Shown: positions 1 to 53,384 of the stretch, piece after piece
Layout: each line of letters opens with the position of its first letter
Position numbering within the stretch: the first letter of the stretch is position 1
DNA from: Armatimonadota bacterium
GTDB lineage: Bacteria > Armatimonadota > SYMT01
Direction: 5' to 3'
NCBI GenBank assembly: GCA_041690135.1
Contig: JAWLHY010000002.1
Location: 656,342 to 720,341 of the forward strand
Length of the DNA stretch: 64,000 nt
Program-made: the position numbers and the translations under genes
Notes under the pieces: model-generated
The model's database searches: none
Told to the model about the DNA's origin: nothing
What the model saw: the letters and a program-made list of their open reading frames with translations, nothing else

Positions 1-693
1 CATCGCGTCAAAGGCGAGGTGGCGCGCCTCGTCCAGAGCGTGGAACGCCCAGATCTGGCACACGAGACTTTCCCGGCGGGCGATCCGCTCGTGGGCCATC
101 TGGTGGGCGTAGATCGAGATCAATTCCGCGAACCGCAGCAGCGTAAAGGTGACGGATACCCGCAGCTTCCGGCCCGGCAGCGTGCCCGCCAGCCGGAACA
201 CCCAGCGCAGGACGCGATCGACGCTCCGCACCGGTAGCGGAGGGCGGCCCGGCAGCGAGCCTTGAATGGCGGCGACGGCCCGGTTGAAGAGGGTGACATG
301 GTAGATCTCTTCCTTGATGAAGTGGGCGATGTATTCGGTGAACGGTTGGGCGTCATCCAGGTCATACAGGCCCGCGAGCGTGCCGATTGCATGGCGCTCC
401 AGCAGCCCTGTGAACGCCATCAGGTTCATCTGCTGGTATTTGGCGAACGCCACCTTCGCAGCCGGACCGAGGTCCTGGTCGTAACCCGTGCCCACCAGCA
501 GGCTCCAGGCGTCGTACAGGGCAGCGTACTCCTCGTCTGTCGTCTCCGCGCTCCAGTCCACGTCCAACTCGGGTGTGAACGACCGCGTGAGCGACAACCG
601 GTTCAATCGCTCCAGCAAGCAATCGCACATCAACTTGCCTTCGCAAACCGCGCCGACCGCCGCCACTTTACTTTCCAGCCGTTCCCGGTCCAT
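1..693 (-). CDS. AurF/CmlI-type diiron N-oxygenase (ferritin-like), 3' end outside window
   Basis: Absent from the ORF track because there is no stop in the window. Manual translation from ATG 693 gives MDRERLESK...GLLERH...KEEIYH...FAELI...FHALDEARHLAFDAM, matching the E / ExxH / E / HxxxExxH ligand pattern of the AurF family. Confidence 0.8.
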   Translation of the reverse strand, partial: MDRERLESKVAAVGAVCEGKLMCDCLLERLNRLSLTRSFTPELDVDWSAETTDEEYAALYDAWSLLVGTGYDQDLGPAAKVAFAKYQQMNLMAFTGLLERHAIGTLAGLYDLDDAQPFTEYIAHFIKEEIYHVTLFNRAVAAIQGSLPGRPPLPVRSVDRVLRWVFRLAGTLPGRKLRVSVTFTLLRFAELISIYAHQMAHERIARRESLVCQIWAFHALDEARHLAFDAM

Positions 694-5085: not shown

Positions 5086-7179
<2,094 letters not shown>

Positions 7180-7222
7180 GCACTACGGTCGCTGTTGTTA
7201 CAACAGCGAATGGATAGAGAAC

Positions 7223-7266
7223 AGAACGGCCGGGGATCCTCGCGATCCCCGGCCGTTCTTCATTTT
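7223..7266 (+). terminator. Intrinsic terminator after fusA
   Basis: 16-bp stem AGAACGGCCGGGGATC/GATCCCCGGCCGTTCT followed by TCATTTT. Confidence 0.8.
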
Positions 7267-7765
7267 GGCCTTCCCGCACGGCGACTCGCGGAACCTCGCC
7301 CCACTCCGGTAACCGAGGGACAGTCCTGCCCCATTACGGAGTCCCGTCCCCAGACGGTGGTTTGCGACCCTGACCTGGAATCCCGTTAGCGTTCACCGAA
7401 CACGCCTGCGCCCACGCCCCGTTCGCGACCTACTGACCGGATCCGAACCCGTTCCTCCTAATCGGCAGCCGCCCGTACCCCCATCGCGACCCACGGACCG
7501 GATCCCGTCAACAGTTTTGCGAACTACCGCGAGAAGGCGGTACTCCGCACTCGCGCCCAGCGAGTGGAATCCAGGAGGCGATTACCTCGCCCGATGGCTG
7601 CCTCTCCCAAACCGCAGGTCCCCCACCACCTCTGGTCTCCCGTCGAAAAATGTTGGCAATTTGAGGGGGGGGTCATGTATACTTCACTCAAGCTCATTTA
7701 ACAACCAGCCGGTAACCATTGCAGTACCTCCCGCTACAGGCTCGATCCCGTCAGGAGTGCGCCCC

Positions 7766-8023
7766 ATGAATTCCGGTATCTGCTATGTTCCCACCCCCGC
7801 CGAACGCGAGGTGCTGCAGGCCCTCGTCGACTACGGCGAAGTTCCCGCCGCTGCTGCCGCGTCTTGCCGGTCCCCGCACACCATCGAGGCGCACCTGGCT
7901 CGCCTGCGTGACGCCACTGGTCTCCGCCGGCTCCACCAACTCACCGCCTTCGATGGCAACGGCGATGTCGTTGGTGGGCACAACGTGAGCCACTCCTTCG
8001 CTGTCGTAGAAACAGGACCCTGA
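7766..8023 (+). CDS. Small LuxR-type HTH protein, possibly chimeric or truncated
   Basis: TPAEREVLQAL...SPHTIEAHLARLR LuxR-HTH pattern; AGGAG RBS; stop 1 nt before the next ATG. Confidence 0.6.
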   Translation: MNSGICYVPTPAEREVLQALVDYGEVPAAAAASCRSPHTIEAHLARLRDATGLRRLHQLTAFDGNGDVVGGHNVSHSFAVVETGP

Positions 8024-45221: not shown

Positions 45222-48077
45222 CTACTTTCCCGCCTTGCGCTGCAGCGCAAGGCGGAGTTGGCTTTTTGCTTCCGTGGCGTAAGGATCCAGGGACAGGGCC
45301 CGCCGGAATGCGGCGATCGCGGCATCGATCCGCTTCGTCTCCAGGTACAGTAGCCCGAGGTTGTAGTGGGGGAGCGCCAGGTCCGGCTGTAACTGAAGCG
45401 CCTTGCGGTAATTCTGTTCGGCTTCCGTAAGCTTCTTCCGCAGCTTGCATAAGTTGCCGAGGCCGTTGTAGGCGTGGGCGTGTTTCGGGTCCAACTGGAG
45501 TGCTTTCCGATAGGCCTGCTCTGCCTCCGGAAGTTTCTTCAGGTCGAGATAGACATTTCCCAGCCCATTGTGGGGAGAAGCGCTTCCGGGCTCCAGTTGC
45601 AGCGCCTTCCGGTAGGCCTGTTGAGCTTCGAAGTACTTCGCTTGCTTACGGAGCACATGTCCCAGTCCGGTATGTGAGTGGGCATAATCGGCGTCCAGTT
45701 CTATGGCTTTGCGGTAGGCTGCTCCCGCCTCCGCATATTTCCGCTGTTCCAGGAGCGCATTGCCGAGGTTGTGCTGGGCGCCCGAATCGGACGGGTCCCG
45801 CTCCAGGACATTGCGAAACGACTGCTCCGCCAGGGGGTATTTCTTCTGATCAAACAGCACGTTGCCCAGCGCGAAGTGGAAATCCGTGTCCTCGGGGTCC
45901 AGTTGCAGCCCCTTGCGGAAGATCTGCGCCGCTTCGGAGGACCTTCCCTGGTCCTGGACCACCCTCCCCAATTCAAAGAGAGCGAAAGTGTTCGTGGGCG
46001 CGAGGTCGAGAGCGCGCCGGTAGGAGTTTTCGGCCTCCACCCACTTCCTCTGGTCGTGGAGCGTGCGACCCAACTCGTAGAGAGCGCTGGCGTCCTTGGG
46101 AGCCAGCCGGATCGCCTCTCCGAACGCCGCTTCGGATTCTGTGTACTTCTTGAGAGCCCGTAAGACCTTCCCCAGACCCAGGTGGGTTGGGGCATCAGCC
46201 GGTTCCAGGGCAGCGGCCTTCTGGTAGCACTCGACTGCCTCCGGGAGCTTCTCCTGTTCGAAGAGCACGTTGCCGAGGTTGTAGTGAGCGGTGGCGGTGT
46301 CCTCCAACTCGAGGGCCTTGCGGAACGAGGCTTCCGCCTCCAGCAGCTTCTTCTGTTCTCGATAGATGTTGCCCAGCCCCACGTACGCCGCGGCGTACGT
46401 GGGGTCCAGCGCAACCGCCTTGCGGTAGACGGCTGCCGCATCCGCATGCTTGCCTAGCTTGTAAAGGGTGTTTCCCAGGTCCTGGAAGTTGGCAATCGCC
46501 ATGGGGTCCAGTTCGGTGGCTTTGCGCAGGGCTGCTTCCGCTTCGACCAGCTTCTGCTGGCGGTAGAGGGCGTACCCGAGAGCTCCATGCGCGGCTGCCG
46601 ACGTAGGATCCAGCTCCGCAGCTTTCCCGTAGGCAACCGTGGCCTCCGCCAGTTCGTGCTGCGCGTCGAGGGCGTTGCCGAGGTCGAGCTGAAAGTCGGC
46701 TCGCCCGGGATCCAATTCCAGCGCCTTTCGCAGTGCCGCGACCGCCTCCCCATAGCGCTTCTGGTGGTGCAGCGCGAGACCCAGCCGGTGGTGGGTATTG
46801 GGTGCTTCGGGGCGCACCTCCAGCGACTTGCGGTAGGCGCCTTCCGCCTCCGGATACCGTTCTTGGGATTCCAGCGCCAGTCCCAGATTATGGTGCGTGG
46901 CGCCGTCCCTCGGATTGAGTTCAAGAGCCTTGCGGTAGGACGCTTCGGCTTCCGGGTAGTGGTGCTGGTGATACAGCGCGTTACCCAGGTCGTGATGGGC
47001 GCTTGCTGATTCGGGCTTCAGTTCGAGGGCCTGGCGGTAGGCCTGTTCGGCGTCGGCGTGTTGTCCCCGATCCGTGAACAGGTGGCCCAGTTGGGTGCGC
47101 GGGTAGGGGTTCTTGGGGTCCATTTCGCCGGCCCGCCGCAAGAGGCGTTCGGCCTCCGAGTATTTCTTCTGCAGGCGGTAAACGGTCCCGAGACCGGTAT
47201 AGGGCGGGGCGTAAGTAGGGTCCAGTTCGATCGCCTTGAGGTGGGCCGTCTCCGCCTCGGCGTACTTCTCCTGGCTGGTGAGGGCGAGCCCCAATCCGAA
47301 GTGGCAGTTCGCCAGCTCGGGACGCACTTCGATGGCCCGGCGATAGGCCGCTTCGGCGTCCGCGTACTTCCCCCGCGCGCGATAGCCGTCCCCCAGGTTG
47401 AGGTGCGGGTCCACCGCGGTTGGTTCCAGTGCACCGGCCTTGCGGAACGCCGTCTCCGCTTCCTCATACTGGTGCTGTGCATCGAGCCACTGCCCCAGTT
47501 CGAAGTGGGCCAGCGAAGCCTGGGGCGCCAGCTCGACGGCACGCCGGAGGGCCTCCTCGGCTTCAGAGAATGCCTGCTGTCGAAGCATACGGCCGAGCAG
47601 GCAGAAGGCGAGGGCGCACTGCGGGTCGCTTTGGAGTGCCTGCCGGATTGCGTTCTTCGCCGTCTCGAAGTCTTTGCGATCCAGGGCGAGGGTGGCGAGC
47701 CCGAGGTGACCGATAGTCTGGCGGGCATCCTGTCGCACGCTCGCGCGCAGGTGCTTTTCTCCCGCCGCATAGTCCCCGTTCCGCACCAGGGCAAAGCCCA
47801 GCAGGGCCCGAGCCCCCGCATGGTCCGGGTCCAGGGCCAGAGCCGCGCGCGCCAGGGAAAATACCTTCTCGGGAACCTCAATCTGCGCCAGGAGCGGTTC
47901 TCCCAGGCTGACCAGGTCATCCGCCGCCCCAGCTTCGGACGCGCATTCCCGCTCGAAGGGCGGAATCGGCCGAACGACCCCGCCTTCCGGTAAGGAGTGG
48001 GGTCCTGCCCAAACGGTAGCCGGCGGGACGGTAGCCAGAGCCAGCAGCAGGACGACAGTCGTTGAAGCGGGTCGCAT
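45222..48077 (-). CDS. Secreted tetratricopeptide-repeat protein (~25 repeats)
   Basis: Signal peptide MRPASTTVVLLLALA; 34-aa repeats (AH.NLG..L...Y.EA...YRKALEL.P) to the C-terminus. Confidence 0.93.
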   Translation of the reverse strand: MRPASTTVVLLLALATVPPATVWAGPHSLPEGGVVRPIPPFERECASEAGAADDLVSLGEPLLAQIEVPEKVFSLARAALALDPDHAGARALLGFALVRNGDYAAGEKHLRASVRQDARQTIGHLGLATLALDRKDFETAKNAIRQALQSDPQCALAFCLLGRMLRQQAFSEAEEALRRAVELAPQASLAHFELGQWLDAQHQYEEAETAFRKAGALEPTAVDPHLNLGDGYRARGKYADAEAAYRRAIEVRPELANCHFGLGLALTSQEKYAEAETAHLKAIELDPTYAPPYTGLGTVYRLQKKYSEAERLLRRAGEMDPKNPYPRTQLGHLFTDRGQHADAEQAYRQALELKPESASAHHDLGNALYHQHHYPEAEASYRKALELNPRDGATHHNLGLALESQERYPEAEGAYRKSLEVRPEAPNTHHRLGLALHHQKRYGEAVAALRKALELDPGRADFQLDLGNALDAQHELAEATVAYGKAAELDPTSAAAHGALGYALYRQQKLVEAEAALRKATELDPMAIANFQDLGNTLYKLGKHADAAAVYRKAVALDPTYAAAYVGLGNIYREQKKLLEAEASFRKALELEDTATAHYNLGNVLFEQEKLPEAVECYQKAAALEPADAPTHLGLGKVLRALKKYTESEAAFGEAIRLAPKDASALYELGRTLHDQRKWVEAENSYRRALDLAPTNTFALFELGRVVQDQGRSSEAAQIFRKGLQLDPEDTDFHFALGNVLFDQKKYPLAEQSFRNVLERDPSDSGAQHNLGNALLEQRKYAEAGAAYRKAIELDADYAHSHTGLGHVLRKQAKYFEAQQAYRKALQLEPGSASPHNGLGNVYLDLKKLPEAEQAYRKALQLDPKHAHAYNGLGNLCKLRKKLTEAEQNYRKALQLQPDLALPHYNLGLLYLETKRIDAAIAAFRRALSLDPYATEAKSQLRLALQRKAGK

Positions 48078-48096: not shown

Positions 48097-49608
48097 TCAA
48101 CGGGGCCGCGTCGAGAGCGAGGCCAGGATCTCCTGCAGGTAGCGCCGTAGATAGAAACGGCCCATCCGGTCCTTGTCCGGGGAGAAGACGGGGGCATCCC
48201 CTTCGGGACGGCCCTCGCGCTGTAGGATGACGGCGGCGACCGGTCCTGTGCCTCCGGCAACCGGTCCGGGAACGCGTGCCACCAGGCGCAGGGCGGCACG
48301 CTCGAGCCAGGCCGCGCGGTCGCGGGCGTGGCCCTCTTGCTCTAGCCAGGCGATGGGGACCAGCGCCGCCAGTATCCCGCCGGCTCGGAGCCGCTCCAGC
48401 AACTGCGCGGGCCGGTGCGCGGAATGGGATCCGGCAACCAGGTCGGCGAGGAGCCAGGCCGGGCCCTTGCCGTCGGTCACCTCGCGCGCGGACCACTGGC
48501 GGACGGTCCGCACGAAAGCTCCGCCGAGCGGGTAGGCCTCCACCACGCGCGGTGCGCGGGTCGCACCTTCCCGCTCGCGGTCGAGGATGGCGCAGACACG
48601 GGCGAGGAACTGGCCCACTTCCCGTTGCCAGCCGCTCAGCTCCCGGCCTCCTTCTTCCGCGGGGGCGCCGCCGGGAAGGTAGCGCAGCACCTCATTCGCG
48701 GTCCGCTCCCCTCCACCCCAGGTGAGGCGATGGACCGAAGGCGCCTCTTCCCAGAGCTTCTTCACACCCTCGGGAGTTTCCGGGCCCCGATCGAGCGCCA
48801 CCACCGTCTTCCCCTGCCGGGCCGCCTCCCGACATTCGGCAGCCATGACTCCCTCCTCGCGGATGTCGACCGCTACCACCACGTCCGCCAGGGTGAAGAG
48901 CAGGCCGTCGCGCCGGGGACCACTGCGGGGATGCCACCGCTCGCGCCAGCCGCAGGGGGAGAGCAAGAGCTGGAGCTCCGGATCGAAAGCGGTGTCCCAG
49001 ACGCGGGCCGTGGCCACCGGTTCTCGTTCCAGGCCCGCGGGAAAGGCTTCCGCGATACCGCGGTCCAGGACCATCACGGTAGGGGCGGCATGGCGCTTGG
49101 CGGCGGTGGCGGCAGCCTGGTACGCCTCGCGGTTGGTGGAGGTGACGAGCGCCAGGTCGCGCCGTGCGAGGGCATCGGCCACCGCGTCGGTAATGGCAAT
49201 GGCGGCGTGAGACGCATTCCGGCTATTGGCAAAGGCGACCCGCGGCTCTTCGAACAGGCCCAGCGCACCGTAGGCGAACACCAGGGGCCACCGCCGGTGG
49301 GCCGACTGCGCCAGGATGGCGGGGTACTCCGCGTCCGAAGGGACCAGCACATCCACTCCGCGGCGGGTAATGTCTCTCGCTTCCTCCGCGGCCCGCTCCC
49401 AGCGCGCCTCCCCCTCGGTCTCCAGCAGGGCCACGGCGCGGGCATCCAAAGAAACGAGCCGGCGCAGGTCTTCGGGCGCGGCGAGCCAGAGGTCCGCCAG
49501 GCCCTGACGCCCCTCGCGCGCGTGGTCCATCAGAGCCAGGAGCGTGCGCTCACCCACGTGGGGCAACGCCGACCAGGCCAGCACCGCCTGTAGTTCTTGC
49601 GGGTCCAA
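48097..49608 (-). CDS. Divergent DprA/Smf-like protein with C-terminal degenerate methyltransferase-like domain
   Basis: LPHVG, DAEYPAIL, VFAYG, VAFANSR, LADVVVAV, QGKTVVAL follow the DprA motif order; extra ~180-aa C-terminal domain. Confidence 0.75.
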   Translation of the reverse strand: MDPQELQAVLAWSALPHVGERTLLALMDHAREGRQGLADLWLAAPEDLRRLVSLDARAVALLETEGEARWERAAEEARDITRRGVDVLVPSDAEYPAILAQSAHRRWPLVFAYGALGLFEEPRVAFANSRNASHAAIAITDAVADALARRDLALVTSTNREAYQAAATAAKRHAAPTVMVLDRGIAEAFPAGLEREPVATARVWDTAFDPELQLLLSPCGWRERWHPRSGPRRDGLLFTLADVVVAVDIREEGVMAAECREAARQGKTVVALDRGPETPEGVKKLWEEAPSVHRLTWGGGERTANEVLRYLPGGAPAEEGGRELSGWQREVGQFLARVCAILDREREGATRAPRVVEAYPLGGAFVRTVRQWSAREVTDGKGPAWLLADLVAGSHSAHRPAQLLERLRAGGILAALVPIAWLEQEGHARDRAAWLERAALRLVARVPGPVAGGTGPVAAVILQREGRPEGDAPVFSPDKDRMGRFYLRRYLQEILASLSTRPR

Positions 49609-49842
49609 CAGTTAGCTCCTTGCCTTCGGTTGATCAGGATTGAGATGAAGATTGGGATCAGGATGGCGAGGGATCAGAGGTGCTGCCGGGTTAAACCGCC
49701 GGGTCGCCAACCCCGCCAAGAAAGAGACGAGGATCCTCAATTTCACCACAGAGAACACGAGCTTCCTCGTATGGAAGCGCTCGGATTGAGGAAGACGGGG
49801 ATCCTGTGAAGACTTGGCCCTTACCCAGGTACTCGTGGCACA

Positions 49843-50343
49843 TCAAAACGCCCCAATGGGGTTTGGGCGGAGTGCGAAACCACATTGCCAGGCTTTCTCG
49901 AACACCGTTCGGGAACAGGTGCTGTGAGCTTGTGTCGAGAGCGTAGCGTGGGAAAGTGGGTCGGAGAATGTCACCTGGAAGTCATCGATCGCCACTATGA
50001 CAACCGCGTGGAGCGGGCAGAAGCCATCCAGCGCATATCCAAGCACTTCGTCGTCGTAGGCGTGCAGGTTGGCGATAACCGGGGTGGGGTCGGGTTCGGA
50101 AAGGTGTGCCTCTACTTCCTCCAGGGTAAATGCCGGGATGGCCTGAACACCTGCCAGATTGCTGATGTTGCTGAATGGTGTGCCGGTATGGGGATCGAAT
50201 TCGAGTTGCTCTATAATCGTCTCCCAGGAATGTTCGATCCCCAAGAAGGCGCAAACCATCGCGACGCAGGCGGGAACACAGGCAGGAAGATCCTCCTCCT
50301 GGGGTTCGTAGGGAAACTCATCGGGATTGGGCAGCGACGGCAT
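49843..50343 (-). CDS. Peptidase C39-like papain-fold cysteine protease
   Basis: Q....ACVPACVAMV (catalytic Cys), LHAVVIVAID (His), SDP (Asp). Confidence 0.8.
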   Translation of the reverse strand: MPSLPNPDEFPYEPQEEDLPACVPACVAMVCAFLGIEHSWETIIEQLEFDPHTGTPFSNISNLAGVQAIPAFTLEEVEAHLSEPDPTPVIANLHAYDDEVLGYALDGFCPLHAVVIVAIDDFQVTFSDPLSHATLSTQAHSTCSRTVFEKAWQCGFALRPNPIGAF

Positions 50344-51610
50344 GCTGTGGCCCTTCTTGGGACTCGCTGACTACTCCTGTAATGGCGTCAACGTACAGCT
50401 TGCCTGCAGGGTGTTTGCCAGGTTCCGCCCAGCCCTCGGGTAATCTCGCCGCATCTTCCCTCGATAGACCGCGGGGAGGCGAGTAAAAAAAGGCGATCTC
50501 CCAGAGCCTCTCTGTTCTACGGGCCGGAAGTTCTACGCCGAACCTCTGACCGCGCGTGTGCGAAAGGTATGCGCAGGCGGCTCGGACGGCCTGCTGCTCA
50601 TTAGTGACACCCGGCCAGGGATCCGCGATCAGACGCGAGGGAATCCCCTGGTTGATGCGGTGTTCCCAGTAGAGCGCATCTTGTAGACGGCTCAATTCAT
50701 CCGCCCCTTTAGGGGTTATTGATCCCGACCGGGTAGCACCCTTGAGCGTCTCATATTGCTCAAGCTTCCGATCATCCAGGAGGCGGACTGGAAGCAGGGG
50801 TGTCCGGGGCCAGCCTGCGAACAATTCTTCTTGAGAGCCAGGATGATCTCTGGTATGCGGTGCCTCCTTGATAAGCTCTCTCGCTTCCTTCTCTGACCAA
50901 CCGTAGAGTTCGACGACCGCACTGAGCAAGTAGAGTTGGTGATCACGGATGTAGGATGGCAGGTCCAATCGGCAGGCCGACTGTGCTTCATACAGTTGAT
51001 GCAGGCGATAAGAGAGCAAAGCGACCTGCGCAAAAGTACTCGGCTTGAGCGCTGGGGCCGCTATCGGTAATCTCTCCAGTACTTTCTTAGCGAGTTCCTT
51101 GCTCTGGCTACCAACTTCCTGGGCAGTGCGAGCATAGAGAACGTGACCTATGGCGCTGTTCAGGATCCCTACCACCGCGAACGCCATCGCCAGTTCCCAG
51201 CCGGGTGCCAGTGCACCTATCCATGCCCGCCTGGGATAGATCGCCTCCGCGGTCACGGACCAGCGCAGATTGGCGGAACGGTCTGCCGCCACCAGCTTCA
51301 CCGGTGCATCCACGAGGGGTCGCGGGAGCTTCGTGATATGTGAACTGCCGTCTGCCTTTGCGAAGGCCGCCGAAATATCCTCGTACAGTGCCCACTGTTC
51401 TCGCCGGTGATAGTGGTAGCTCTTCAGGTCGGCAGCCTGGAGCACCCGGTAGTGCTCCGGAGATTCGCGCAGCCGGCCAACTGGAACAGTCACCTTCGGT
51501 GGGAAGCGAGCGCAACGGAGCGGCTCGATGATCCGCCCGAGCAGGATGAACTCCTGTTCTTCCTTCACCGACTTCGCAACCCGATCCAGCAGTTGAGTCC
51601 CTGTTGCCAT
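50318..51610 (-). CDS. Stand-alone R-M target-recognition (TaqI_C-like) domain fused to unknown C-terminal domains
   Basis: KLVAAD...VVGILNS...LERLPI...VVELYGWSEKE resembles type IIG/Eco57I C-termini; C-terminal GKLYVDAITGVV. Confidence 0.6.
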   Translation of the reverse strand: MATGTQLLDRVAKSVKEEQEFILLGRIIEPLRCARFPPKVTVPVGRLRESPEHYRVLQAADLKSYHYHRREQWALYEDISAAFAKADGSSHITKLPRPLVDAPVKLVAADRSANLRWSVTAEAIYPRRAWIGALAPGWELAMAFAVVGILNSAIGHVLYARTAQEVGSQSKELAKKVLERLPIAAPALKPSTFAQVALLSYRLHQLYEAQSACRLDLPSYIRDHQLYLLSAVVELYGWSEKEARELIKEAPHTRDHPGSQEELFAGWPRTPLLPVRLLDDRKLEQYETLKGATRSGSITPKGADELSRLQDALYWEHRINQGIPSRLIADPWPGVTNEQQAVRAACAYLSHTRGQRFGVELPARRTERLWEIAFFYSPPRGLSREDAARLPEGWAEPGKHPAGKLYVDAITGVVSESQEGPQHAVAAQSR

Positions 51611-51728
51611 GGCTTTAACATCCCCAGTGCTCTCGCTCGCAAGGCTTGCATTCATGGTACGGCTTGGGCAGCCCGTCGTCCACCAGACATTGCACTCGCG
51701 ATCCGTGGGTTCAATTGCCCAAGTCCAC

Positions 51729-53384
51729 TTACTCTCTCCGAGTGATCTCTGAGGTTGAGCCTTCCCATCGGCAGATTTCTCGGAGGAGCCGGTGTGTCTC
51801 TTCCCGGCTGGGGGTGGTGGTCCAGAGCTGCTCGCGGAACCGCTGATAGGGACCGAGGAGCGGGTGGGCCAGGAAGGCCTCGTAATCAATCCCCATCTCT
51901 CGCAGTTCCTGGGTGACCGTGGCCAGGTTGCCCCGCCGGCGATCCCGGGCGAGGCGTCGATTCAGCTCTGTCTGAATAGGCTCGGGCTGCTCCGCCACCA
52001 TGAACTTGAGGACGTTCTGGTCCAGGTTCGCACCGAACCGCTCCAGATACTCCGGTCCGGGATCAAGCGGAATCTCATCGGCCAGGGTTTCGAACAACGG
52101 CGGTTCGGGTGCCTCGCGGTCTCGAGTCCAGATCGCCTTCAGCAGCAGTCGCCGCCGCAGATCCTCCGGTTCCTCCTCCAGGTAGCGGTCGATGAGCGCA
52201 CAGGCGGCCGCTGGGTCCACCAGCACCTCGCCTTTCCACACGCTGAGCCCGGCGAGAGCCGCCTCCAGATGGCGGGCGAAGAAGGGTGGATTGAGGTAGG
52301 CGCCGTGGACGGGTCCCCGCGGATCGGTCCGACACTGGACTCGGATCCGGTCACCGGCGGCGTGGTCCAGGTAGGCGCGGAGATGGGGGAGGTGCGCCAG
52401 GCCGGCCACGTGGACCGCACGCAGTTCTCCTCCCGGCTCCACCGCGCGCGCAGCCCGGCATACCTTCTCCAGCAGCACTTCCAGCAGGTAGAAGTCGTTT
52501 ACCCCCAGCAGGAACCCTTCCAGGATCTGCTGCTGCACGAACTGCGGCAGCTCCGCTGCCGGTACCTGGAACTCGCGCGCCAGCGGCGCCAGGCGTTCCA
52601 CGGTGTAAGCTTCCACTTCCAACACCGGCGCGGGGGCGTGATCATACAGCACCAAGTGCCGCCCCGCACCCACCGGATTCTCCGAGGCGCCGACGTGGAC
52701 GATCCGGTTCGCCGCGAAGGCCTCCTGGAGGTGCGGCGGCAGGTCCGCGAAAAGTACTTCCAGCGACACGGGCTCCGGGCCCACTCCGCCAAGCTCTTGC
52801 CGGGGATAGCTTTGCGCATTGGGATAGGGGAGCGCGAGCGCCGGGGCCTCGAAGTCGTTCGCGACCAGCCCGTGCCGGTAGTAGAGGCGCGCGCGCAAGT
52901 AGCGGACGTGGGGGTTGACGTTGCAGCCAACGGTCCCGAAGCGCGGCGCGTTCCGGCGACAGTGCTCCAGGAGATCGAGCCAGAAGATGTTGCGGATGTG
53001 AACTTCCGCCTCACCACCGCTCTCGTCGCTGCTATTCGGTGCGGCGAGATACGCCTTCACGGGAGTGGTCGGCAGCTCCAGGCTGACCAGGTCAGCCTCC
53101 CGTACGACGGGGACTTCGCTCGGGAACCAGTGGCCGATATGCTCCACCCCCAGAAACGTCAGGACGAGCCGACGGTCCCCCTGGCGCAGGAGATCATCCA
53201 GCTTCCGGAGCAGGAAGCCGATCCGGTTGAGGTAGCGGTGTCGGGACGCCACGGGATACACGTGATCAGGACCAGGATGGCGATCGAAATCAAGAAGCGA
53301 CGCTGCGGGACCCGTCTCCGGAACATACAGAGAAGGGTGTCCCACATAGCTTCGCTGCCGGGCAAGAGGTTCCCTGCCTGCCAA
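51729..53384 (-). CDS. Hypothetical protein (start uncertain)
   Basis: 551-aa ORF with normal high-GC codon use; FLGVEH and VAGLAH weakly recall the EreA/ChaN/Tiki fold. Confidence 0.65.
   Translation of the reverse strand: MAGREPLARQRSYVGHPSLYVPETGPAASLLDFDRHPGPDHVYPVASRHRYLNRIGFLLRKLDDLLRQGDRRLVLTFLGVEHIGHWFPSEVPVVREADLVSLELPTTPVKAYLAAPNSSDESGGEAEVHIRNIFWLDLLEHCRRNAPRFGTVGCNVNPHVRYLRARLYYRHGLVANDFEAPALALPYPNAQSYPRQELGGVGPEPVSLEVLFADLPPHLQEAFAANRIVHVGASENPVGAGRHLVLYDHAPAPVLEVEAYTVERLAPLAREFQVPAAELPQFVQQQILEGFLLGVNDFYLLEVLLEKVCRAARAVEPGGELRAVHVAGLAHLPHLRAYLDHAAGDRIRVQCRTDPRGPVHGAYLNPPFFARHLEAALAGLSVWKGEVLVDPAAACALIDRYLEEEPEDLRRRLLLKAIWTRDREAPEPPLFETLADEIPLDPGPEYLERFGANLDQNVLKFMVAEQPEPIQTELNRRLARDRRRGNLATVTQELREMGIDYEAFLAHPLLGPYQRFREQLWTTTPSREETHRLLREICRWEGSTSEITRRE

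What the first reader, a model, noticed from the sequence alone, without database searches (positions are those of the whole stretch)
48097..49608. Divergent DprA fused to a catalytically dead N6-DNA-methyltransferase-like domain
Seen: the N-terminal ~310 aa follow DprA motif order, but hallmark motifs are substituted (VGSR to ANSR, SGLARGID to STNREAYQ, RNR to RDG, SGS to EGV). The C-terminus LLERLRAGGILAALVPIAWL...RAAWLERAALRLVARVP...GTGPVAAVILQR resembles the HsdM/N6-MTase pattern LKPGGR.AIV.P...L...R..LL....L.AII.LP...T.ILIL.K. Eroded motif I (VVEAYPLGGAF) and motif IV (WLLADL, no NPPY) precede it. Inference: this is a repurposed DNA- or nucleotide-sensing protein and not a normal competence DprA. 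SLOG/DprA domains are known to recur in conflict systems.
Basis: partly seen in the sequence, partly recalled or inferred. Interest (0 to 1): 0.7.

Follow-up and report, generated by a model that had tools for sequence, protein, structure and literature searches.

The report
DprA paralogue fused to dead methyltransferase
This gene encodes a second, divergent copy of the DNA-uptake protein DprA that carries a stripped-down, non-catalytic copy of a DNA adenine methyltransferase domain, an undescribed domain combination of unknown role that is conserved in one bacterial order.

Summary

A profile of this domain also finds true N6_Mtase proteins by sequence. Those enzymes carry DPxxGxG and NPP(Y/F/W). 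None of the 40 aligned family members does, and two strands of the cofactor pocket appear to be deleted.

The genome has a canonical dprA elsewhere, and the protein lies in a separate clade. The fused form was found in 8 of 8 genomes of its order and nowhere else in the phylum, where a 300-aa unfused form is common.

Gene neighbours are not conserved, and no toxin or effector partner was found. The defence-sensor reading is therefore not supported.

Most likely it is a chromosomal, non-catalytic nucleic-acid-binding DprA paralogue. Function is inferred, not shown.

The parts
48097..49608 (-). Whole gene: 503 codons plus TGA stop (48097-48099); TTG start at 49608
   Evidence: ORF list. Family alignment shows the same N-terminus in homologues. 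GC3 is 0.82, like the neighbouring native genes.
49616..49621 (-). Shine-Dalgarno-like AAGGAG, 7 nt upstream of the TTG start
   Evidence: Read directly from the sequence.
49369..49608 (-). Residues 1-80: helical N-terminal domain, sterile-alpha-motif type as in S. pneumoniae DprA and ShosA
   Evidence: The model has five helices at residues 3-83. Alignments to ShosA 8zva (model 1..302) and SpDprA 3uqz (4..314) include this part. The ShosA paper describes a SAM domain at residues 1-94 (PMC11961720, passages).
48667..49368 (-). Residues 81-314: divergent DprA-type Rossmann (SLOG) domain
48100..48666 (-). Residues 315-503: long linker helix (319-345) plus a reduced, non-catalytic gamma-class N6-adenine DNA methyltransferase-like domain
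48511..48543 (-). Residues 356-366 (VVEAYPLGGAF): remnant of motif I (strand 1 plus loop)
   Evidence: Predicted strand at 356-359 followed by a loop and helix. P360 is kept in 37/40 and G363 in 33/40, but the acidic residue and second glycine of DPxxGxG are not kept. Active relatives have DPxCGxG.
48439..48456 (-). Residues 385-390 (WLLADL): predicted strand in the topological place of strand 4; the following loop replaces motif IV
   Evidence: Strand at 385-389. D389 is kept in 40/40 and L390 in 39/40. Positions 391-398 are variable and carry indels. Assigning this strand to strand 4 is inferred from the order of secondary-structure elements, not from a residue-level superposition.
48211..48408 (-). 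Residues 401-466: motif V-VIII-like core (LLERLRAGGILAALVPIAWL ... AAVILQR)
   Evidence: hhalign places Q87-152 of the C-domain on the Eco57I-type profile. HMMER alignments to P0080, P0074 and others cover the same stretch.

Best explanation
The gene encodes a lineage-specific paralogue of DprA. It has three parts:
- a divergent DprA Rossmann (SLOG) domain;
- after a long helix, a cut-down, non-catalytic copy of the catalytic domain of restriction-modification-type N6-adenine DNA methyltransferases.

Shown here:
- the architecture;
- homology of both halves to these families;
- loss of the methyltransferase motifs;
- co-existence with a canonical dprA;
- restriction of the fused form to one order;
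- a single clade for the fused forms, next to an unfused 300-aa form that is common in the phylum.

Inferred:
- The DprA module still binds single-stranded nucleic acid through its retained basic residues, as DprA and ShosA do.
- The basic pseudo-methyltransferase domain (pI about 10) takes the place of the C-terminal winged-helix domain of canonical DprA. It would act as a second, non-enzymatic binding surface for DNA (possibly a flipped or modified adenine) or for a methyltransferase partner.
- The protein acts in chromosomal DNA metabolism (recombination, repair or handling of incoming DNA) rather than as part of a mobile defence operon.
For: Gene and family:
- The family has about 50 members of roughly 500 aa at 41-86% identity.
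- Both domains are conserved: mean pairwise identity is 0.60 for the Rossmann part and 0.42 for the C-domain, n=40.

Fold:
- The full model has pLDDT 91.9 and pTM 0.90.

Sequence homology of the C-domain:
- hhalign E 4.7e-5.
- 7 N6_Mtase/Eco57I proteins are among the 38 library hits.

Loss of catalysis:
- 0/40 members have motif IV and 0/40 have any Pfam MTase hit.
- 7/7 of the active hits have both DPxxGxG and NPP(Y/F/W).
- Only five strands are predicted where class I MTases have seven.

Paralogy:
- A canonical dprA is present in 7/8 genomes of the order.
- The tree splits canonical from (long + short) with support 100, and the long forms are one group with support 96.

Inheritance:
- The long form is in 8/8 order genomes and 0/193 other genomes of the phylum.
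- GC3 is native.
- Identity ranks are roughly parallel to those of canonical DprA.

Binding:
- Basic residues are retained at the GSR, GxARG and RNR positions.
- C-domain pI is 8.0-11.4, mean 10.2, n=40.
- ShosA, with the same two-domain N-part, binds ssDNA (PMC11961720, passages).
Against: - No binding or activity was measured, so function is inferred from homology only.
- The hallmark DprA glycine-rich motifs are replaced, so ssDNA binding may be altered or lost.
- The N-part is mildly acidic overall (pI 5.4-6.2), although the genome's canonical DprA is acidic too.
- Weak SLOG cluster-4 hits in 30/40 members, and a methylthioadenosine-phosphorylase-like gene upstream of the unfused form in 5/16 loci, point instead to a small-molecule ligand.
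- The deletion of strands 2-3 is read from the count of secondary-structure elements, not from a superposition.
- The sampled order has only 8 genomes, some incomplete (69-98%).
Confidence: 0.5

Rival explanations
1. Small-molecule reading. The SLOG-type N-domain, perhaps together with the adenine-pocket remnant of the dead methyltransferase, binds or processes an adenine nucleotide or nucleoside (for example a SAM by-product). The protein would be a metabolic regulator or enzyme rather than a DNA-binding protein.
For: - PF18306 (SLOG cluster 4) hits at E up to 1 in 30/40 members, best 1.7e-4, all below the cut-off.
- The family consensus R-P-G-G-x-M-x-R-E-C, with G253 in 40/40 and E258 in 39/40, sits where LOG enzymes carry PGGxGTxxE. 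That motif is recalled, not tested here.
- There are many invariant Arg/Asp residues.
- The unfused relatives have an MTAP-like PNP_UDP_1 gene immediately upstream, overlapping or abutting, in 5/16 loci.
- SLOG proteins are described as nucleotide and ligand binders (PMC6459960, passages).
Against: - The five MTAP-linked loci come from only two families, so shared ancestry may explain them.
- No such gene lies beside any of the 11 fused-form loci.
- The first glycine-rich SLOG motif is replaced by TSTNREAY.
Confidence: 0.2
2. The protein is a sensor or antitoxin of a conflict (anti-phage) system, in the manner of ShosA, PsyrA or SLOG sensors.
For: - PADLOC ShosA and PsyrA models hit at E 1.2e-13.
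- ShosA is the top structural match.
- In this window, two apparently foreign low-GC3 genes lie just upstream: a C39-like peptidase and a protein with a weak TaqI_C match.
- One relative's locus has HNH and ADP-ribosylglycohydrolase genes next to it.
Against: - The PADLOC scores (49 bits) are no better than the generic Pfam DprA score (45 bits). ShosA and SpDprA tie in Z (25.8 against 25.6).
- None of the three upstream neighbours has a PADLOC hit.
- No phosphoribosyltransferase or RecQ-like toxin was found in any of the 11 loci.
- The upstream 523-aa gene was not found in the 7 order relatives.
- The gene is present in 8/8 genomes of the order as a single copy, which is unlike sporadic defence genes.
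- The surrounding window encodes ArgJ, ArgB, a TPP enzyme, Rieske/cytochrome b and similar proteins.
Confidence: 0.12
3. The C-terminal domain is still an active methyltransferase with unorthodox motifs, so the protein would methylate DprA-bound DNA.
For: - The fold and sequence are homologous to N6-adenine MTases.
- There is an invariant Asp (D389) at the end of the strand that occupies the place of strand 4.
- A remnant of the motif I loop is kept: P360 and G363.
Against: - 0/40 members have (N/D/S)PP(Y/F/W/H).
- The loop after D389-L390 is variable and carries indels.
- Only five of the seven strands are predicted, and the segment that should hold motifs II-III is a 12-residue loop.
- 0/40 members reach any Pfam MTase model.
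Confidence: 0.03

Closest known systems
DprA/Smf recombination mediator (PF02481; S. pneumoniae 3UQZ, R. palustris 3MAJ, H. pylori 4LJR)
   Different: It shares 26% identity with the genome's own DprA and falls far below the TIGR00732 cut-off. The glycine-rich motifs are replaced. There is a family-specific insert, PVATARVWD, with invariant R202, W204 and D205. The C-terminal winged helix is replaced by a pseudo-methyltransferase. It forms a separate clade.
ShosA, the DprA-like antitoxin of the ShosTA defence system (8ZVA, 9VZO)
   Different: No ShosT-type phosphoribosyltransferase gene lies nearby. Identity is 18%. ShosA has no methyltransferase-like domain. The gene is lineage-conserved rather than sporadic.
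Gamma-class N6-adenine DNA methyltransferase domains of R-M and BREX enzymes (PF02384/PF07669: HsdM 2OKC/2AR0, PglX 8C45, BpuSI 3S1S, CamA 7LNI, M.TaqI 1AQI)
   Different: It has no DPxxGxG and no NPP(Y/F/W). About 60-80 residues are missing relative to the enzymes (chain ranges), which I read as loss of strands 2-3. There is no target-recognition domain. It does not reach the Pfam thresholds.
Unfused 300-aa DprA-like proteins of the same phylum (for example P0051-P0057, L059-L074)
   Same: They share the divergent motifs NSR, RRD and VLDRG...DR(D/E)P. They form the sister group on the tree. They match the family profile at E 1e-20 to 2e-72.
   Different: They end after the Rossmann domain. 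They were found outside the order in about 67 of 193 genomes (my count from the table). Some are coupled to an MTAP-like gene.

Membership tests
DprA/Smf (PF02481 / TIGR00732) | Pfam DNA_processg_A domain above the gathering score | tested here: met
   45.2 bits against 29.6, E 8.1e-12. 40/40 family members hit at E up to 1.
DprA/Smf (PF02481 / TIGR00732) | Orthology to competence DprA (NCBIfam equivalog cut-off) | tested here: not met
   TIGR00732 scores 31.5 against 191.15, and PRK10736 scores 24.4 against 495. A canonical copy lies elsewhere in the genome. The protein is in a separate clade, support 100.
DprA/Smf (PF02481 / TIGR00732) | SAM plus Rossmann fold as in solved DprA structures | tested here: met
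DprA/Smf (PF02481 / TIGR00732) | Hallmark motifs GSR, SGxARGID, F-x-x-RNR, GSG | tested here: not met
   They are replaced by NSR, TSTNREAY, RRDG and EEG (family consensus PGG). Only the arginines and S129 persist.
DprA/Smf (PF02481 / TIGR00732) | ssDNA binding and RecA loading | not testable with these tools
   This needs EMSA and RecA-loading assays.
N6-adenine DNA methyltransferase (PF02384 N6_Mtase / PF07669 Eco57I) | Class I MTase fold of the R-M adenine type | tested here: met
N6-adenine DNA methyltransferase (PF02384 N6_Mtase / PF07669 Eco57I) | Pfam model above threshold | tested here: not met
   0/40 members hit any MTase family at E up to 1. Homology is seen only by a family profile.
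N6-adenine DNA methyltransferase (PF02384 N6_Mtase / PF07669 Eco57I) | Catalytic motif IV (N/D/S)PP(Y/F/W) | tested here: not met
   0/40 members have it. 7/7 active relatives found with the same HMM do.
N6-adenine DNA methyltransferase (PF02384 N6_Mtase / PF07669 Eco57I) | Motif I (D/E)xFxGxG-type SAM loop and motif II-III strands | tested here: not met
   Only P360 (37/40) and G363 (33/40) remain. No strands are predicted between helix 364-372 and strand 385-389.
N6-adenine DNA methyltransferase (PF02384 N6_Mtase / PF07669 Eco57I) | SAM binding and methyl transfer | not testable with these tools
   This needs biochemical assays.
ShosTA / PsyrTA (DprA-like antitoxin) | Match to the ShosA or PsyrA model | tested here: inconclusive
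   E 1.2e-13, 49 bits, to PDLC03961 and PDLC03927. No curated cut-off exists, and the score is similar to that of generic DprA.
ShosTA / PsyrTA (DprA-like antitoxin) | Adjacent toxin gene (phosphoribosyltransferase ShosT or RecQ-like PsyrT) | tested here: not met
   In the window the neighbours are a TPR protein, a C39-like peptidase, a TaqI_C-like protein and an unknown. None was found in the 10 other loci.
SLOG nucleotide-binding families other than DprA (LOG, SLOG cluster 4) | Pfam model above threshold | tested here: inconclusive

The most novel reading that the evidence does not exclude
The fusion is a 'Rosetta stone' for cooperation between DprA and adenine methyltransferases. The dead methyltransferase domain would have kept only its ability to engage DNA or a flipped adenine, or to pair with an active HsdM-type subunit.

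It would then let a DprA-like ssDNA binder do one of two things: read methylated or alkylated adenine in single-stranded DNA, or recruit methylation or repair enzymes to it.

Two observations fit this:
- H. pylori DprA is reported to interact physically with, and stimulate, methyltransferases (PMC3597690, abstract).
- Three different DNA base-damage repair genes lie within about 3 kb in 3 of the 11 loci: AlkB-like, HhH-GPD and AlkZ-like.

The repair-gene count was made after seeing the genes, and it is small.
Probability: 0.12. Interest if true: 0.75.

Novelty: new variant of a known kind. Interest (0 to 1): 0.45.

Why it matters
Pseudo-enzymes derived from DNA methyltransferases are rarely documented in bacteria. 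DprA paralogues outside competence are only now being characterised, for example ShosA.

This family offers a clean natural case. A DprA-type module swapped its winged-helix tail for a methyltransferase shell that has lost its chemistry, and the result has been kept under selection across a whole order.

If the shell reads DNA bases or docks onto methyltransferases, it would link DNA uptake or recombination to the methylation or alkylation state of DNA. If it binds a small molecule instead, it would extend the SLOG sensor repertoire.

In either case it corrects database labels: the sources of these proteins call them 'DNA-processing protein DprA'.

Tried and rejected
- **Ordinary DprA orthologue.** Rejected.
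- **Operon partnership with the upstream genes.** The C39-like peptidase, the 523-aa TaqI_C-like protein and the 551-aa unknown had no tblastn match in five relatives' loci. The 523-aa protein was not found in the 7 order relatives with this query. The C-domain HMM does not match the 523-aa or 551-aa protein.
- **A separate gene for the C-domain next to the unfused forms.** None was found within 1.5 kb in 4 loci. None appeared among clustered ORFs of 16 loci with 6 kb flanks.
- **Metagenome scan for more loci.** It gave only 4 short contigs. Their neighbours include a BON-domain gene, divergent and upstream, in 2 of them and within about 1.5 kb in one order relative. No repair genes were found there.
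- **Global hhalign.** It gave no reliable residue-level placement of motifs I and IV (probability 3%). The extended local alignment outside residues 401-466 has near-zero confidence.
- **Bulk pI of the N-part as a test for DNA binding.** Uninformative, because the canonical DprA is acidic too.
- **Sequencing runs.** None was listed for the region, and no RNA holder was listed.
- **ESM Atlas, C-domain.** The best score was 0.87, to a cluster in which 25% of members carry N6_Mtase. This is a lead only.
- **Homodimer prediction of the C-domain.** The job never ran because the queue was full at every attempt. There is no result.
- **Literature.** 'DprA' plus 'inactive methyltransferase' returned 0 papers. 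'SLOG' plus 'DprA' plus 'methylase' returned 3 papers; from the listing and passages of one, none describes this fusion. Subscription-journal papers and supplements were not searched.

Full report
**The gene**

The window holds an open reading frame at 48097..49608 on the minus strand, 503 aa with a TTG start. AAGGAG lies 7 nt upstream of the start. Homologues begin at the same residue. GC3 is 0.82, like the native genes around it.

The stop codon is followed after 19 nt by the ATG at 48077 of a secreted-looking TPR protein with its own GGAG, so the two genes may be co-transcribed. No promoter-like site was found. The three terminator-like sites are no more than shuffled sequence gives.

**The N-terminal 314 residues**

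- Pfam DNA_processg_A matches residues 81-279 at 45.2 bits against a cut-off of 29.6.
- The NCBIfam DprA equivalogs are missed by far: TIGR00732 scores 31.5 against 191.
- Identity to that DprA is 26% over 239 residues.
- The AlphaFold model built from a 40-sequence alignment is confident, with pLDDT 91.9 and pTM 0.90.
- Basic residues persist at the positions that HMMER aligns to the GSR arginine and the GLAKG lysine of pneumococcal DprA and to the first arginine of RNR. Position 130 is R/K in 37/40, position 160 in 40/40, and R233 in 40/40. That these are DNA-contacting residues in DprA is recalled, not tested here.
- ShosA, with the same SAM plus Rossmann layout, binds ssDNA (PMC11961720, passages read).

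**The C-terminal 189 residues**

No Pfam family reaches them in any of the 40 members. A profile of the family found no PDB sequence for this part.

By structure the answer is clear:
- A second model of the domain alone (8 sequences, pLDDT 88.1) was aligned to all 48,161 representative chains without a Foldseek pre-filter.

Sequence evidence agrees:
- hhalign of the 40-sequence C-domain profile was run against 19 Eco57I-type domains. I took these from 19 of the 30 loci returned, choosing those with near-full Pfam matches. It aligns residues 401-466 to the motif V-VIII region at E 4.7e-5, probability 68%.
- An HMM of the domain run over 1.84 billion representative proteins gave 38 hits. I scanned 15 of them against Pfam.
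  - P0074, P0080-P0084 and P0087 are N6_Mtase/Eco57I proteins.
  - P0071, P0073 and P0076 are family members with a DprA domain.
  - P0060, P0067, P0085 and P0086 have no family. P0079's sub-threshold matches are unrelated to DprA or MTases, and it is a tandem-repeat protein.

**Is it dead?**

- All seven active enzymes found by the HMM carry DPxxGxG and NPP(Y/F/W).
- None of the 40 family members has (N/D/S)PP(Y/F/W/H) anywhere.
- Of motif I, only P360 (37/40) and G363 (33/40) persist.
- The model predicts five strands where class I methyltransferases have seven. Between the helix after strand 1 (364-372) and the next strand (385-389, WLLAD) there are only 12 residues.
- I read this as loss of strands 2 and 3, which carry motifs II-III of the cofactor pocket. 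WLLAD would then be strand 4, followed by an invariant D389-L390 and a variable loop with indels in place of the catalytic loop.
- This assignment rests on the order of secondary-structure elements. No residue-level superposition was available, and the global hhalign was unreliable.

The domain is consistently basic, with pI 8.0-11.4 and mean 10.2 across 40 members.

**Distribution and origin**

- The genome has a canonical dprA on another contig: 244.8 bits, 365 aa, with all hallmark motifs.
- In the 8 genomes of the order, all 8 have the fused form. Matches span profile positions 2-500.
- 7 of the 8 also have a canonical DprA at 245-266 bits. The eighth genome is 88% complete.
- In 193 other genomes sampled from the phylum, no match reaches the C-domain. 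About 67 (my count from the table) have a match at E 1e-20 or better to positions of roughly 10-290 in ORFs of about 300 aa.
- I built a tree from 17 of the 40 long forms (N-part only), 21 short forms and 7 canonical DprAs. It separates canonical from the rest with SH-aLRT 100. Long forms are one group (96) and short forms the other (90). This fits a single fusion.
- Identities of the fused protein to its six family relatives (35-57%) rank roughly like those of canonical DprA (50-69%), so it evolves faster. With n=6 this is weak support for vertical descent.
- Record titles of related loci read Armatimonadota or Armatimonadetes, and one reads Actinomycetes.

**Context**

I examined 11 loci with flanking DNA:
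- the window;
- seven order relatives; the five loci are the same places as five of them and are counted once;
- three metagenome contigs.

No neighbour is shared generally. Two things recur. A BON-domain gene lies upstream on the other strand in 3/11 loci. DNA base-repair genes of three different families (AlkB-like, HhH-GPD, AlkZ-like) lie within about 3 kb in 3/11 loci. I made both tallies after seeing the genes. No toxin or effector partner appears.

In the window, the two genes just upstream are a C39-like peptidase and a 523-aa protein with a weak TaqI_C match. They have low GC3 (0.63-0.66) and look foreign. The 523-aa protein was not found in the order relatives. The wider window encodes ArgJ, an amino-acid kinase, a TPP enzyme, DUF1501, Rieske/cytochrome b and an M81 peptidase. 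It is not a defence island.

The unfused forms have an MTAP-like phosphorylase gene immediately upstream in 5/16 loci, from two families.

**Interpretation**

I commit to a non-catalytic, chromosomal DprA paralogue (confidence 0.5). Its DprA module would bind single-stranded nucleic acid. Its basic pseudo-methyltransferase domain would replace the winged helix of canonical DprA as a second binding surface for DNA or for a methyltransferase partner.

Rivals:
- a small-molecule-binding SLOG protein (0.2);
- a defence sensor or antitoxin (0.12);
- an active, unorthodox methyltransferase (0.03).

The reported physical and functional interaction of H. pylori DprA with methyltransferases (PMC3597690, abstract read) makes a DprA-methyltransferase link biologically plausible. 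It says nothing direct about this protein.

**Novelty and limits**

Two full-text searches found no description of a fusion between DprA and an inactive methyltransferase. Sources label family members simply as DprA.

All functional statements are inferences. No expression data could be obtained. A homodimer prediction could not be run. The contigs behind most metagenomic family members could not be inspected.

Noticed in passing
window 49843-51889 (-): A C39-like peptidase gene (166 aa; PF13529 E 1.2e-7) and an overlapping 523-aa ORF with a weak TaqI_C target-recognition match (E 0.049) have GC3 of 0.63-0.66, against about 0.8 around them. The 523-aa protein was not found in the 7 order relatives. 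It has 29-33% identity matches only in one other genome of the phylum, G016. This looks like a foreign insert.
   Followed up: partly
window 51729-53384 (-): A 551-aa ORF with native-like GC3 (0.78) has no Pfam, NCBIfam or PADLOC hit.
   Followed up: no
window 45222-48077 (-): A TPR protein of roughly 950 aa has more than 20 repeats and a signal-peptide-like N-terminus (MRPASTTVVLLLALA...). Its ATG at 48077 lies 19 nt after the stop of the DprA-like gene, so the two may be co-transcribed. It is not next to the gene in relatives.
   Followed up: partly
L063:6813-7679, L064:5222-5968, L068:6813-7853, L069:6807-7559, L072:5234-5971: In 5 of 16 loci of the unfused 300-aa DprA-like form, an MTAP-like (PNP_UDP_1) phosphorylase gene lies immediately upstream on the same strand, overlapping or abutting the start. 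The five loci come from two families.
   Followed up: partly
L003:9820-10470 (-), L006:5643-6797 (+), L054:132-1256 (+): An AlkB-like 2OG-Fe(II) oxygenase, an HhH-GPD glycosylase and an AlkZ-like glycosylase lie within about 0.3-3 kb of the fused gene in three different relatives. The category was chosen after seeing the genes, and no background rate was computed.
   Followed up: partly
L081:2620-3045 (-), L082:2159-2650 (-), L007:3072-3650 (-): A BON-domain (OsmY-like) gene lies upstream on the opposite strand of the fused gene in 3 of 11 loci.
   Followed up: no
protein P0086 (752 aa, from the representative library): This protein has no Pfam family. It carries the same degenerate methyltransferase-like domain at residues 79-214 (including LLVVDL in place of WLLADL), in a different architecture without a DprA domain.
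   Followed up: partly
proteins P0074 and P0079: P0074 is an N6_Mtase with a duplicated motif IV-VIII segment (two NPPY). P0079 has six tandem repeats resembling the family's LAALVPxxWL...R..WL stretch.
   Followed up: no
L003 6507-9500 (+): In one relative, the frame of the gene stays open for 997 codons upstream. The upstream part overlaps a SpoIID gene on the other strand (6369-7856) and has no family hit of its own. It is probably a high-GC open-frame artefact and not a longer protein.
   Followed up: partly
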